NCBI GenBank assembly: GCA_963842945.1
Contig: CAWJIM010000018.1
Coordinates: forward strand, 84,550 to 148,549
Reading direction: 5' to 3'
DNA from: an uncultured Gemmatimonadales bacterium
Lineage (GTDB): Bacteria; Gemmatimonadota; Gemmatimonadetes; Gemmatimonadales; GWC2-71-9
DNA length: 64,000 bases
Shown here: positions 28,764 through 33,444 of the stretch, piece by piece
Numbering within the stretch: the stretch's first letter is position 1
Layout: each line of letters opens with the position of its first letter
Translations under genes and position numbers: made by a program
Notes under the pieces: generated by a model
Database searches by the model: none
The model's input: the letters and a program-made list of their open reading frames with translations, nothing else
Told to the model about the DNA's origin: nothing

Positions 28764-29890
28764 GCGCCGAGCGCCTCCTTGAGCTTGGACCAGAAGCCGG
28801 GCGCGCGCTTGGGTGCCTCTCCTTCGAGCTTGGCAAGCTCGCGGAAAAGCCGCTCCTGCTCGTCCGTGAGGCGCTCCGGCGTCCACACATGTACTCGCAC
28901 CAGGAGGTCACCCTTGCTGTCCTGTCCCAGGACCGGAAGTCCCTTTCCCCGAAGCCGGAGCACCGTCTCCGGCTGAGTACCGGGAGGAATCCGAAGCCGC
29001 TCTTCGCCGTACGGCGTGGGCACCTCGTGCTCACCGCCGAGCGCCGCCTGGGAAAATGCGAGCGGAAGGTCGAAGATCAGGTCGTCGCCCTGACGCTCGA
29101 ACCGATCGTCCTCCTTGATATCCAGCATCACGAGGAGATCGCCGCTGGGCCCGTTGCGCGGGCCGGCCGCACCCTGTCCCCTAAGCGTCAGATAGTTGTT
29201 GGTGGACACGCCGGCGGGGATATCCACCGTCACACTGCGGTCGCCCCGCACCCGGCCCTCGCCCCGGCAGACGTCACAGGTCTCGCGAATGACGCTGCCC
29301 TCCCCGCCACAGGTGGGACATGGTGCCACCGAGATGAACTGCCCGAACATGCTGCGGGTGGCGCGGCGGACCTCGCCGCTCCCGTTGCAGGTGCCGCAGG
29401 TGGTCGGCTTGGTCCCGGGCTTCGCTCCGGTGCCCTCGCAGGTGGTACAACGCTCCAGACTCTTGAGCTTGACCGTCTTCTTGGCGCCGAGGGCGACCTC
29501 CTGCAGTGTGAGCCGAACGGTCACCCGGATGTCCTGGCCCCGCCGCTCTTCCGCCCTGGTCCGCCGGCCGCCGAAGAGGCCCTCGAGGCCACCCATGGCG
29601 CCGAAATCGCGCATGAAGATGTTCAGCGCTTCGCTCAGATCCACGTGGTGAAAGCCGAAGCCACCGGCAGCTCCGCCGATCCCGGCCCTGCCGTAGCGAT
29701 CGTAGGCTGCCCGTTTCTGCGGATCGCGCAGGATCTCGTACGCCTCGGTGATCTCCTTGAACTTCGCCTCTGCTTCCGGCGACTGGTTCCGGTCCGGATG
29801 GTATTCCATCGCCAGCTTCCGGTAGGCCTTCTTGATCTCGGCTTCGGAAGCGTCCCGGGAGACACCGAGCAGGGCGTAGAATTCGCTCAC
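28760..29890 (-). CDS. dnaJ: Chaperone DnaJ
   Basis: J-domain HPD and four CxxCxGxG motifs. Confidence 0.97.
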   Translation of the reverse strand: MSEFYALLGVSRDASEAEIKKAYRKLAMEYHPDRNQSPEAEAKFKEITEAYEILRDPQKRAAYDRYGRAGIGGAAGGFGFHHVDLSEALNIFMRDFGAMGGLEGLFGGRRTRAEERRGQDIRVTVRLTLQEVALGAKKTVKLKSLERCTTCEGTGAKPGTKPTTCGTCNGSGEVRRATRSMFGQFISVAPCPTCGGEGSVIRETCDVCRGEGRVRGDRSVTVDIPAGVSTNNYLTLRGQGAAGPRNGPSGDLLVMLDIKEDDRFERQGDDLIFDLPLAFSQAALGGEHEVPTPYGEERLRIPPGTQPETVLRLRGKGLPVLGQDSKGDLLVRVHVWTPERLTDEQERLFRELAKLEGEAPKRAPGFWSKLKEALGA

Positions 29891-30922
29891 TCCAGCAATC
29901 CTTCCACCAGACGGCTGGTATGCTCCACCAGGCCGATGATTTTGTCGTAGGGCATGCGGGTAGGGCCCATCACTCCGATAACACCCTTCAGGCTGCCGGC
30001 CTCGTAGGAGGAGGTGACCAGGGTAAAGTCGCTGAGCCTGGCATCGGGATTTTCGGCCCCGATGGTCACGGAAAGCCCCCGCTGCCGGCGGGATTCCAGC
30101 GCCTGTTTCAGGAGATCGCGTCCCTCGGTGAGCCGGAGGAGCTCGCGCATCCGGGCGTTGGAGGCGAACTCCGGCTGATCCGCCAGCATTTGGGCGCTAC
30201 CCAGCACCACCCCATACTCGTCCGTTCGACAGATCGAAGAGACCATCGCCCTCGGCGATGAAGATGTTGAGCAGCTCGCGATCGTCCTCGCTCCCGCAGT
30301 CCCGTAGCCGCTCGGAAAGCGTCGCCCGAATATCCTTGAGGGTGAGTCCAGCCAGCCGCTGATTGAGGATCTTCGCCACCTGCTGCACGGCGTTGGGAGC
30401 CACTACCCGGGGGACTTCCACGAAGATCGTGCGGACCACACCGCTCCGGAGATTGAACACCAGGAGCAGGCGTTCGGAGCTCACCTGAACCAGCTCGAGT
30501 CGCTCCAGCACCACCTGATCCAGAGCGGGCGCCACCGCCACGCCCAGCTCCTGGGTAAGAACTCCGAGGACCTGGGCGGCTCGCCGGAGAATCTCTTCTA
30601 CCGCACTACGGGGGACTGCCAGCTCCGCTCGCAGCGTGTGCTGTTGCTCGTGACTCGGGGGAGACAGCCGCATGATGGCATCCACATACACCCGATAGGC
30701 CCGGTCGGTGGGGATCCGCCCGGCGGAGGTGTGCGGATGAAAGAGGAAGCCCTTGTCTTCCAGTTCGCTCATGGTGTTGCGAATCGTGGCTGGAGAGACG
30801 CCCAGACCGAACTTCCGGGCAATCGTCTGACTGCCCGCCGGCTCGGCGGTCTCGATATACGTCTGCACCACGGCTTCGAGCACCCGAAGCTCGCGCTCGC
30901 TCAACTGCTCTGATAGCGGCAT
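29887..30922 (-). CDS. hrcA: Heat-inducible repressor HrcA; apparent frameshift ~30205
   Basis: SPATIRN.M..LE, PHTSAGRIPT, then GVMGPTRMPY in a second frame. Confidence 0.94.
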
Positions 30923-30931
30923 GGAACAAAT

Positions 30932-32030
30932 CTAGACGGAGGCTACCAAGGCGTCCAAACGGAGCCAACCTTCCGGGGTGAGCCGGATCCGGCCGTCCTG
31001 GAGCTCCGCCCACCCGCTTCTGATCCAGGTAGTTCGGAGGGCAGACGCAATGCTATGCTCTGGCAGCCCGTCCCTGGTTCGGAGGCCCAAGTACAGCTCC
31101 TCCAACCGGATGGCCGATTCGTCCAGCTCCTCCCGGCCGCCCAGGGGTGAGCCTCCTGCCTGCAGCGCGCGCTCGTATTCGGCCCATTCCCTGACGTTCC
31201 ACCGGCGTTGCCGGCCGAAGCCACTGTGGGCCGAGGGCCCCAGCCCAATGAAGGGTGCTCGTTTCCAGTAGGCCGAGTTGTGCCGGGCGCGGCGCCCGGG
31301 TAGTGCGGCGTTGGAGACCTCGTAGTGATCGTACCCCCGCTGGCGAGATCGCCTGATGGGCGGCCAGAAACTCCGCGGCATAGCGCTCCTCGTCCACCGG
31401 GGTCAGCTCGCCTCGGCCGGCTCTATGACCCAGCACGGTGTGGGGCTCGACTGTGAGGCCGTAGAACGAGAGATGCTCCGGTTCCAGGCCGAACGCGAGG
31501 TTCAGGTCTGTTTCCCAGTCCCTGGCGAGGTCGGCCGGAAGGCCGAAAATCAGATCCAGCGAGAGGTCCTGAAACCCGGCGCAGCGGAGCGCCTCCACCG
31601 CGGAGGGTACCTGCTCGGCCGTGTGGACCCGGTGCATCCACTGGAGCACCGCGGGATCAAATGATTGGACTCCCAACGAAATCCGGTTCACCCCCGCGGC
31701 TCGCCAGGAGGCCGATACCGGAAGGGTCACGTCATCGGGGTTGGCTTCCAACGTGATCTCGGCGTTCGCCGCAAGTGGCCGGTCGCGGGTGAAGCGGTCG
31801 AGCAGTCGGGCGATGGCGTCGGGCGGGACCCGGGACGGCGTGCCTCCACCGAAGTAGATGGTTTCAATGGCGGGCGATTCATCCCAGACCGGATCTTCCA
31901 ACCAGAGGGCCCATTCGTCGAGGACTGCGTGGGTGTACGCGGCGGACGGGACCTCCCGCCTGACCGCGATGGCAAAGTCGCAGTAGCTGCAGCGCCGGGC
32001 GCAAAATGGGACGTGGACATACACGTGCAT
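30932..32030 (-). CDS. hemW: Radical SAM heme chaperone HemW; apparent frameshift ~31345
   Basis: YVHVPFC..RCSYCDF, YFGGGTPS, YEVSN, HNSAYW. Confidence 0.93.
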
Positions 32031-32090
32031 GCCTGAATGTAGGCCCCACATGGGCGTGGAGGGCAAATAGCCTTGAATGGTCGTATGAGG

Positions 32091-32177
32091 GTGAGCCGGG
32101 TGGGCACTCGCGCAGGCTCCGCGACAACCGCTACTCCACCCCCCTGGGAGCCTGCGGCTCGCACCCACCCGGCTCAC
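32091..32177 (+). repeat. Structured element copy 1 (two-stem hairpin with 26-nt loop)
   Basis: 14-bp and 10-bp perfect stems; loop GCGACAACC-N11-CCCCTG. Confidence 0.85.
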
Positions 32178-32224
32178 GCTGGTGCATGCTGACAAGTCGA
32201 TCTCAGCGACTCTGAGACCATGCA

Positions 32225-32316
32225 AATGGAATGGGGATGGGTTCGATGGCAGCGTCCCAGGGGAAGGGTTGCGTGGTTGTCGCGGACGCTGCCCGAGGAC
32301 CCATCCCCATTCCATT
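32225..32316 (-). repeat. Structured element copy 2 (inverted homologue of copy 1)
   Basis: 17-bp and 10-bp perfect stems; minus-strand loop GCGACAACC-N11-CCCCTG. Confidence 0.85.
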
Positions 32317-32328
32317 CCCTACCCTGCT

Positions 32329-33444
32329 TCAGAATGACCGACGGACTCGCCGGAACACCCGGCCCGGCCCCTGCTCTACCACACCAGCAATCTCCAGCCC
32401 ACACAGAATCCCCAGCACATCGCCAATCGGCCGGCCGCATCGGGTTGCCAACTCATCAGGGTGCAGCGGTTGACCGCCGATGAGCTCCGCCAATTCCCGT
32501 TCAGCGTGTGACAAGGTCTCCGGCAGGGGCGGCTGAGCTGGACGAGCCACGCTCCCTTCGGCAGATGGCGCTCCGAGCTCGGGGAAATGCTGCAAGAGGT
32601 CGCCCGGATCGAGGAGCGGCGTTGCCCCGTCGCGGATCAACCGGTTGGTACCCTCCGAAACCGCGCTGGTGATGTTACCCGGTACGGCCATCACTTCCCT
32701 GCCCTGATCCAGCGCAGTTCCCGCGGTGATGAGCGCGCCCGAGCCGACTGCCGCCTCGACCACTACCGTAACCCGCGACAACCCGCTAATCAGCCGGTTC
32801 CTTCGGGGGAAGCTCCCGGCGTGGGGCCGCTCTCCCGGGGGAAACTCGCTGAGCAGTAGTCCTTCGGCTGCAACCCGCTGGTAGAGTTTGCTGTTGGCCG
32901 CGGGATAGACCACCCCGTGACCGTTGCCCAGGACTCCTATCGTGGTTCCCCCAGCATCGAGTGCCGCGGCATGCGCCACCGCGTCGAGCCCTCGGGCCAT
33001 GCCGCTCACGATTACCGCGCCGGCCCGAGCGGCCTCTCCCGCAACCTCCCGGCACACCGAGGCTCCATAGCTCGAATGGTCGCGGCTCCCTACCACTGCG
33101 GCCGCTGGACGGGAGAGCAGAGCGCGATCTCCCAGCGCAAACAGGACCGGGGGCGGGTCGGGAATGTGACGGAGAAGGGTCGGATACTCCTGGTCGTCCG
33201 GCAGCAGGACGGTTACACCCAGCTTCTCAGCGGCCTCGAGCGTCTTTTGCCCGATGTCCAGAGGTGTCTCTTTGAGCGCAGTCGCCATGGCGCGAGAAAA
33301 CCCGGACACGGTGCATAAAAGCTCGAACGGCGCCGAATGGGCGCCGAGTGGTGAGGGGTAGGCTGTGAGGAGCGCCGCAAGCCGGGCTGGTCCCATACCC
33401 GGCACTTGGGTGAGCGCCAGATACGCGACTCGCTCGTCGGGCAT
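32329..33444 (-). CDS. dprA: DNA processing protein DprA
   Basis: IPDPPPVL, VGSR, VSGMARGLD, FPRRNRLISGLS, SGALITA. Confidence 0.96.
   Translation of the reverse strand: MPDERVAYLALTQVPGMGPARLAALLTAYPSPLGAHSAPFELLCTVSGFSRAMATALKETPLDIGQKTLEAAEKLGVTVLLPDDQEYPTLLRHIPDPPPVLFALGDRALLSRPAAAVVGSRDHSSYGASVCREVAGEAARAGAVIVSGMARGLDAVAHAAALDAGGTTIGVLGNGHGVVYPAANSKLYQRVAAEGLLLSEFPPGERPHAGSFPRRNRLISGLSRVTVVVEAAVGSGALITAGTALDQGREVMAVPGNITSAVSEGTNRLIRDGATPLLDPGDLLQHFPELGAPSAEGSVARPAQPPLPETLSHAERELAELIGGQPLHPDELATRCGRPIGDVLGILCGLEIAGVVEQGPGRVFRRVRRSF

What the first reader, a model, noticed from the sequence alone, without database searches (positions are those of the whole stretch)
32091..32316. Twin inverted ~90-nt hairpins with compensatory stems and conserved, mutually complementary 26-nt loops
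Copy 1 (+) and copy 2 (-) share one architecture: outer stem ending GGRTGGG, internal loop with CTCG opposite TCG.A, 10-bp inner stem, and loop GCGACAACC-N11-CCCCTG closed by TCC/GGA. The inner stems differ at 3 pairs (CGCAGGCTCC vs GGCAGCGTCC) yet both pair perfectly. The outer stems differ widely yet are perfect (14 and 17 bp). That pattern implies selection on structure. Because the copies are inverted, the two loops on one strand are complementary (9+6 bp), allowing a kissing-loop or switch fold. A third small hairpin (TCTCAG-CGACT-CTGAGA inside TGCATG...CATGCA) lies between them. I recognise no family. Candidates are a pair of sRNAs, a structured ncRNA, or a REPIN/MITE-like ssDNA element beside dprA.
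Basis: partly seen in the sequence, partly recalled or inferred. Interest (0 to 1): 0.8.

Follow-up and report, generated by a model that had tools for sequence, protein, structure and literature searches.

The report
Dispersed G-capped hairpin repeat pair
The twin hairpins are two of ten copies in this genome of a roughly 95-base intergenic hairpin repeat found across one Gemmatimonadales family, likely a selfish REP-like mobile element rather than a dedicated RNA switch, and its copying enzyme was not found.

Summary
The two hairpins are real (fold z -5 to -9; stems and loops as described). The small middle hairpin is chance (z about -0.5). They are not a locus-specific RNA pair. The same unit occurs 10 times in this genome, in 18 of 103 genomes of the genus and in other genera of the family, but in 0 of 79 sampled genomes of other families. 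It sits beside unrelated genes in either orientation, usually alone, often in inverted mosaics with a sister hairpin. The dprA-hemW spacer is empty or holds other repeats in most relatives, and a second site is filled only here (0 of 5 relatives). Conserved parts are a GA-rich internal loop and a 24-27-nt cap (AGGGG...GG..GTC); the outer stems vary freely. Loop complementarity simply follows from inversion. Best reading: a REP/BIME-like non-autonomous repeat that is not a canonical REP, being longer, mostly lacking the GTAG foot, and with no flanked transposase found. No Rfam match, no paper found in my searches, no earlier scan finding on it. Transcription is untested; a quadruplex cap is not supported beyond G-richness.

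The parts
32091..32177 (-). Copy 1 of the repeat (type A); the G-rich, structured strand is the minus strand
   Evidence: (G000:C18:116632-116740:-, 89 bits, a training sequence)
32121..32146 (-). Conserved 26-nt G-rich cap of copy 1
32178..32224 (.). Spacer holding the 5' feet of both copies back to back; the small hairpin here is not significant
   Evidence: z -0.4/-0.6; not conserved in G011 or G050
32225..32316 (+). Copy 2 of the repeat (type A); the G-rich, structured strand is the plus strand
   Evidence: (G000:C18:116763-116870:+, 111 bits, a training sequence)
32242..32299 (+). Core of copy 2: GA-containing internal loop (32242-32247 / 32294-32299), 10-bp inner stem and 26-nt cap (32258-32283)
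32329..33444 (-). dprA (context only; its stop lies 12 nt from copy 2)
   Evidence: Pfam DNA_processg_A E 2.5e-76 and DprA_WH; start from my coding model
31053..32030 (-). hemW-like radical SAM gene upstream of hrcA (context only; starts about 60 nt from copy 1)
   Evidence: Pfam Radical_SAM E 6.8e-20; the name hemW is inferred from sequence and position beside hrcA-dnaJ

Best explanation
The two hairpins are a head-to-head pair of a dispersed, roughly 95-base intergenic repeat that comes and goes at orthologous sites in one Gemmatimonadales family, and they are likely a non-autonomous REP/BIME-like mobile element, copied as folded single-stranded DNA by an enzyme encoded elsewhere. Shown: multi-copy dispersal, genome-specific subtypes, presence and absence at orthologous sites, inverted mosaics, insertion into another hairpin family, and folding bias to the G-rich strand. 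Inferred: the GA-rich internal loop and the G-rich cap are the handle a hairpin-reading nuclease or transposase binds, while the outer stem only has to pair; cutting and rejoining near existing hairpins would explain hot-spot spacers and mosaics. The enzyme is unidentified. My lead candidate is the single-copy Y1 (HUH) transposase gene beside atpH, which I put at only about 0.2. Any effect on the dprA-hemW-hrcA mRNA (stability, processing) would be secondary.
For: 10 distinct copies in G000 on 6 contigs. 18 of 103 genus genomes, up to about 20 copies each. 14 of 151 family genomes in 10 of 78 genera with the broader model; 0 of 79 genomes from other families of the phylum. Mean identity within G096 0.89 against 0.56-0.67 to other genomes; within G067 0.91. 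dprA-hemW spacer is 19-36 nt in 5 of 16 relatives with both genes, holds unrelated hairpins or an extra gene in most others, and this pair in 1 of 16. thrS-side copy absent in 5 of 5 relatives whose flanks are 81-93% identical; V4R-side copy absent in 2 of 2 spanning loci; at sodA the G000 copy interrupts a different hairpin element that is intact in G105 and G087 and missing in G054. 27 of 102 clusters are inverted doublets, A/A or A/B. Convergent gene pairs 25 of 81 against 112 of 929 background gaps of 100 nt or more (Fisher p 2e-5, kin not independent). Stem mismatches on the G-rich strand: G.T 96 against A.C 28, A.G 88 against C.T 8. Strand-specific recognition of irregular stems is described for group 2 REPs (PMC8266576, passages).
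Against: No cognate enzyme gene was found. Among 64 loci (some overlapping) around Y1, RAYT-like, GIY-YIG, IS91 and reverse-transcriptase genes none is flanked by these hairpins; the only hits were an A copy at the 3' end of a uvrC-like core gene and a B copy about 700 nt from a Y1 gene that has its own different hairpins. 0 of 48 four-helix-bundle and GxxExxY loci carried one. The GT[AG]G foot is present in only 13 of 131 copies and the size exceeds REPs. Copy numbers (1 to about 20) are low for REPs. G000's own copies are old and diverged (mean identity 0.67), and some sites keep a copy across genera (kdsA-kdsC in 6 genomes), which would also suit a host function. Two fairly complete element-positive genomes (G008, G074) lack a Y1 match. 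Mobility itself was not observed.
Confidence: 0.62

Rival explanations
1. The unit is mainly a structured RNA element (small RNA, mRNA stabiliser or protein-binding site) that is selected as RNA and has spread secondarily.
For: G.U-type wobbles and GA-rich internal loops favour one strand; strong covariation; cap conserved while stems change completely across genera; enrichment between convergent genes; long retention at some sites.
Against: No bias to the mRNA strand: between co-oriented genes, single copies have the G-rich strand sense in 10 and antisense in 16 of 26 (p 0.33). At kdsA-kdsC 4 are sense and 2 antisense. DNA energies give the same strand preference. No sigma-70-type promoter or intrinsic terminator in 31950-32450. 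85 of 103 genus genomes have no R1 match. No Rfam match.
Confidence: 0.2
2. The cap folds into a G-quadruplex stacked on the stem, a natural duplex-quadruplex handle for a protein or ligand (compatible with either a DNA or an RNA role).
For: About ten G positions in the cap are 80-100% conserved among 124 copies; 122 of 124 have four GG steps if zero-length loops are allowed, against 110 +/- 3 in shuffles (0 of 1000). The resemblance to in vitro selected duplex-quadruplex aptamers is recalled, not tested.
Against: With ordinary loops of 1-7 nt, 91 of 124 qualify against 89 +/- 4 expected from composition (393 of 1000 shuffles as high); 0 of 124 have four GGG runs. An earlier whole-loop shuffle gave 68 of 97 against 57 +/- 4.6. 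Copy 2 of this window has only three separate G runs. Many copies were retrieved with a pattern that fixed CAGGGG, which inflates conservation there.
Confidence: 0.1
3. The pair is a locus-specific kissing-loop switch or antisense sRNA pair controlling dprA or hemW-hrcA.
For: The loops on one strand can pair (duplex -33 kcal/mol); the head-to-head pair is kept in G011 and G050; the cross-copy duplex is within 5-9 kcal/mol of the separate hairpins.
Against: Complementarity is limited to family-conserved bases; the middle 11 nt differ. Most copies are unpaired. The site is empty, single or tail-to-tail in relatives. MFE and centroid folds keep the hairpins separate on both strands.
Confidence: 0.03
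4. The units are MITEs or insertion-sequence ends, or integron attC sites.
For: Long inverted arms, 70-160 nt size, presence and absence at orthologous sites.
Against: The ends are the variable part and the centre is the conserved part, the reverse of a MITE; direct repeats at the stem foot in 6, 3 and 1 of 131 copies for 3, 4 and 5 nt; attC R boxes in 0 of 131 on either strand; no cassette-like arrangement.
Confidence: 0.05

Closest known systems
REP / BIME / REPIN elements with RAYT (TnpA-REP), especially group 2 long REPs with an irregular stem (PMC8266576 passages; PMC6006769 passages; PMC3733652 part 1 of 8 plus passages)
   Same: Intergenic, multi-copy, lineage-specific imperfect palindromes; single or in inverted dimers and mosaics of two related types; enriched between convergent genes; stem broken by conserved purine mismatches; one strand preferred.
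   Different: Median 93 nt against 21-65 nt; GT[AG]G foot in 13 of 131; conserved part is a 24-27-nt G-rich cap, not the foot; few copies; no flanked RAYT. A canonical GTAG REPtron with different repeats exists in G084.
Class 3 TnpA-Y1 with CnGA-footed atypical hairpins, and TIR/TIRYT repeats (PMC6006769 section 27; PMC3733652 passages)
   Same: REP-like families without the GTAG tag in soil phyla; the foot here often ends in GA (52 of 131 among the commonest feet); a Y1 gene is present in 16 of 18 element-positive genomes.
   Different: Strict CnGA in 17 of 131. The Y1 genes in this genus are flanked by short, different palindromes. I did not assign them to a class by profile.
Ssn GIY-YIG nucleases with SRM/NTS (CGTC-type) hairpin repeats (PMC11893778 passages)
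   Same: A precedent for a dispersed hairpin repeat with a dedicated ssDNA nuclease outside the RAYT family; such genes with their own hairpins occur at the same hot-spot spacers (L010, L127).
   Different: SRMs are about 30 nt and unrelated in sequence; the small GIY-YIG genes checked are not flanked by this element.
Bacterial MITEs (RUP, NEMIS, ERIC; as summarised in PMC3733652)
   Same: Size range, intergenic position, stable fold.
   Different: No conserved terminal repeats, no target duplication, no parent IS found.

Membership tests
REP/BIME (GTAG type) | GT[AG]G tetranucleotide 0-2 nt 5' of the stem | tested here: not met
   13 of 131 copies; absent from both window copies
REP/BIME (GTAG type) | Short palindrome of about 21-65 nt | tested here: not met
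   median 93 nt, range 70-161
REP/BIME (GTAG type) | Multi-copy and extragenic | tested here: met
   10 copies in G000; 1 of 102 clusters inside a called gene, 20 lacked a called gene on one side
REP/BIME (GTAG type) | Inverted dimers or mosaics of related units | tested here: met
   27 of 102 clusters are inverted A/A or A/B doublets, 3 are triplets, 2 are direct doublets
REP/BIME (GTAG type) | Strand-specific irregular stem | tested here: met
   conserved GA-rich internal loop; mismatch asymmetry
REP/BIME (GTAG type) | Cognate RAYT gene flanked by copies | tested here: not met
   NF047646 over cut-off in 0 of 5 high-copy genomes; no Y1 locus examined is flanked; 40 or so of 61 Y1 matches in the genus were fetched, and genomes are incomplete
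REP/BIME (GTAG type) | Cleavage of the single-stranded hairpin by the cognate enzyme | not testable with these tools
   needs biochemistry
Class 3 TnpA-Y1 hairpins | 5' CnGA foot and position around the Y1 gene | tested here: not met
   17 of 131; Y1 flanks are other palindromes
Ssn/SRM repeats | Copies flank a small GIY-YIG gene | tested here: not met
   18 GIY-YIG loci from 5 genomes: only a uvrC-like gene has a copy on one side
Ssn/SRM repeats | Match to the published SRM degenerate pattern | not tested
   pattern seen but not run; sizes differ threefold
MITE | Conserved terminal inverted repeats and target-site duplication | tested here: not met
   outer stems vary most; short direct repeats in at most 6 of 131
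Integron attC | RYYYAAC / GTTRRRY boxes at the ends | tested here: not met
   0 of 131 on either strand
Any Rfam 15 family | Covariance-model match over the element | tested here: not met
   no hit on the element at E 5 in the window or at E 10 in 20 loci of varied subtypes

The most novel reading that the evidence does not exclude
An undescribed class of mobile structured element: a roughly 95-nt hairpin whose G-rich cap forms a non-canonical quadruplex or zipped purine motif read by an unknown mobilising enzyme (or a domesticated Y1 transposase at atpH), with sister families (B, F3) built on the same plan that recombine into mosaics and can flip in place.
Probability: 0.15. Interest if true: 0.7.

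Novelty: new variant of a known kind. Interest (0 to 1): 0.36.

Why it matters
How REP-like repeats arise and spread is still open, and almost all work concerns short GTAG-tagged units in Proteobacteria. This family is three times longer, keeps its cap rather than its foot, and lives in a little-studied soil phylum beside several other hairpin families that mostly do have a visible partner gene. Finding its enzyme could yield a new sequence- and structure-specific ssDNA nuclease, as happened for the Ssn family. Without that enzyme or a phenotype it is a lineage-specific repeat of modest interest. It also warns that covarying twin hairpins in these genomes are usually repeats, not new ncRNAs.

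Tried and rejected
Rfam: nothing on the element. Phage and plasmid collections: no real match. IMG/VR patterns: 4, 4 and 0 hits; the 8 hits lack the hairpin and are chance. RNA runs: two metatranscriptomes with 5-6% word share were laid as contigs; neither covers 32044-32304, but the organism is barely present, so this says nothing about transcription. Partner enzyme: Y1_Tnp, NF047646 (55), GIY-YIG (35), Y2_Tnp 1 of 5 genomes (80), RVT_1 1 of 5 (81), DUF559 0 of 5 (82), PF05635 (97; 30 of 59 matches fetched) and PF13366 (98) gave no gene flanked by the element. Pfam on 62 of 93 short ORFs near copies (I left out fragments and evident housekeeping repeats) gave one HNH and one GIY-YIG gene, no recurrent mobile gene. 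Y1 co-occurrence, 16 of 18 against 34 of 85 (Fisher p 2e-4), is uncorrected for kinship and kept only as a lead. The constrained fold failed (it blocked all pairs) and was replaced by a duplex calculation. Hairpin-ribozyme and primase-site ideas were considered by eye from recalled motifs and dropped; not tested. Literature: searches found no description of this repeat; the library lacks most subscription papers, and I read no supplements (repeat lists in the supplements of PMC3733652 and PMC6006769 could bear on novelty). Earlier scan notes held nothing on it.

Full report
Observation. The region 32091-32316 lies between dprA (stop at 32329) and a hemW-like radical SAM gene (start at 32030), both on the minus strand, upstream of hrcA. 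The two hairpins are as described, with 14- and 17-bp outer stems, 10-bp inner stems differing at three pairs and 26-nt loops. Each folds far better than shuffles (z -5.2 to -8.7). The small middle hairpin does not (z -0.4, -0.6) and is not kept in G011 or G050. Relatives that carry the element are titled Gemmatimonadales bacterium.

It is a dispersed repeat. Model R1 matched 18 of 103 genomes of the genus. The broader model R2, which adds a sister unit B and distant copies, matched 14 of 151 family genomes in 10 of 78 genera. Neither matched any of 79 sampled genomes from other families of the phylum; these scans use strict filters and score few candidates per genome, so counts are lower bounds. 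An exact pattern gave 22 loci in GTDB, all Gemmatimonadales, and 37 in metagenomes. Phage, plasmid and viral collections gave nothing real.

Anatomy. On the G-rich strand the unit reads: a foot that often ends in GA, an outer stem of 14-22 bp whose sequence varies freely, a roughly 3x3 internal loop rich in G and A, an inner stem of about 10 bp (broken by a second small loop in B and distant types), and a 24-27-nt cap beginning (C/A)AGGGG and ending GG..GTC... In alignment A1, 93% of cells pair and 18 of 27 pairs show double changes, above all 500 shuffles and all slid controls. The structure came from that alignment, the copies are related, and template switching in DNA palindromes can make compensatory changes (my knowledge), so this alone does not prove selection. 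Strand asymmetry is harder to explain that way: G.T 96 against A.C 28 and A.G 88 against C.T 8 in outer stems, and the G-rich strand folds better in 147 of 152 copies as RNA and 146 of 152 as DNA.

Context and turnover. Neighbouring genes are unrelated from site to site. Of 81 clusters with genes called on both sides, 42 are tandem, 25 convergent and 14 divergent; convergent pairs are 12% of background gaps of 100 nt or more (gene calls are from my own coding model). Single copies between co-oriented genes show no sense bias (10 against 16). Of 102 clusters, 70 show one A unit, 27 are inverted A/A or A/B doublets, head to head or tail to tail; some of the 70 adjoin a third hairpin family. At dprA-hemW, 5 of 16 relatives have a 19-36-nt spacer, one has this pair, and most others carry unrelated hairpins or an inserted gene. 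G050 has the pair, G016, G023 and L139 a single copy, and metagenome locus L137 has both copies in the same order but each reversed; a near-identical contig, L124, ends in a fold-back-like junction, so that flip may be an artefact. The thrS-side copy is missing in 5 of 5 relatives; at sodA the G000 copy interrupts another hairpin element that is whole in two relatives and absent in a third. G096 has its own subtype (0.89 identity within, at most 0.67 outside), which points to recent amplification, whereas G000's copies are diverged (0.67). Against pure selfishness, the kdsA-kdsC spacer holds a distant copy in six genomes of five genera, four sense and two antisense.

The switch idea. The loops pair because the copies are inverted homologues; only the family-conserved 9+6 bases match. 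Folding keeps the hairpins separate on both strands, by 5 and 9 kcal/mol over the cross-copy duplex in a rough calculation. No sigma-70-type promoter or intrinsic terminator was found. The RNA runs available do not hold this organism well enough to test transcription.

The cap. About ten G positions are 80-100% conserved. Four GG runs with ordinary loops occur no more often than composition predicts (91 of 124 against 89 +/- 4); the excess appears only if zero-length loops are allowed (122 against 110 +/- 3). A quadruplex is therefore possible but unsupported; a zipped purine-rich motif bound by a protein fits as well.

Search for the enzyme. Other hairpin families in these genomes sit around their partner genes: small GIY-YIG genes, Y1 transposases, a GTAG-type RAYT-like gene and GxxExxY genes. 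None of 64 Y1, RAYT-like, GIY-YIG, IS91 and RT loci (some overlapping) and none of 48 four-helix-bundle and GxxExxY loci is flanked by A or B. A single-copy Y1 gene, mostly at a fixed site beside atpH, makes up most of the Y1 matches in 50 of 103 genus genomes; Y1 matches occur in 16 of 18 element-positive ones, uncorrected for kinship. It is a lead only.

Comparison. The family behaves like REP/BIME elements as described in PMC3733652 (part 1 of 8 and passages read), PMC6006769 (passages and section 27) and PMC8266576 (passages): extragenic, lineage-specific, inverted mosaics, irregular stem, one strand preferred. It fails the defining tests of foot, size and flanked RAYT, so it works like a REP but is not filed as one. 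Ssn/SRM (PMC11893778, passages) shows that such repeats can have non-RAYT partners. MITE and attC tests fail. No Rfam family matches, and eight literature searches found no description, with supplements unread.

Verdict. A real, structurally constrained and apparently undescribed repeat family, of a known general kind. The mobile REP-like reading gets 0.62, an RNA-first reading 0.2, the locus-specific switch 0.03. Interest 0.36.

Noticed in passing
G000:C4:92900-93160, C21:162630-162890, C24:168950-169220, C24:480750-481000, C3:184830-184990: A third hairpin family ('F3', 160-260 nt) with the same stem / GA-loop / stem plan and an AGGGG...GTC motif, often adjacent to type A in relatives; it may share the same enzyme.
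   Followed up: partly
L033:1809-1916, L044:2829-2943, L054:3098-3209 and 19 further loci: Sister unit B, homologous in plan to A, next to an A unit in 21 of 22 cases (loci were fetched around A); not found in G000.
   Followed up: partly
L137:1987-2243 and L124:1-230: dprA-hemW orthologue in which both hairpins are reversed in place; a near-identical contig shows a fold-back-like junction, so true flipping or artefact is undecided.
   Followed up: partly
G000:C21:326712-327050 (L066) and orthologues: Single-copy Y1 (HUH) transposase gene at a fixed site beside atpH in many genomes of the genus, flanked by short palindromes; looks domesticated.
   Followed up: partly
L067:1100-2000, L068:1120-1980, L168: A second Y1 type flanked by long direct-repeated hairpins of its own, REPtron-like.
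   Followed up: no
L173:1200-1960 (G084:C5): RAYT-like gene with GTAG-type REPs upstream and copies inserted inside its coding sequence.
   Followed up: no
L010 (dprA-hemW spacer of G015) and L127:860-1150: Small GIY-YIG (Ssn-like) genes flanked by their own hairpins inserted at the same hot-spot spacers as this element.
   Followed up: no
G000 genome-wide: At least eight other intergenic hairpin families, many with arms of tandem 7-9-mers, purine-rich on the 5' arm.
   Followed up: no
L099, L179, L182, L189, L199, L201: The kdsA-kdsC spacer holds a distant copy in six genomes with unrelated outer stems and both orientations.
   Followed up: partly
window 29887-32030: hemW (325 aa plus an overlapping 149-aa frame; 365 aa in relatives) and hrcA (241 plus 119 aa) appear frameshifted, probably indel errors in this assembly.
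   Followed up: no
G000:C19:424560-424630: A truncated copy lacking inner stem and cap lies head to head with the full C19 copy; L068:2510-2545 likewise keeps only the two ends of an A unit.
   Followed up: no
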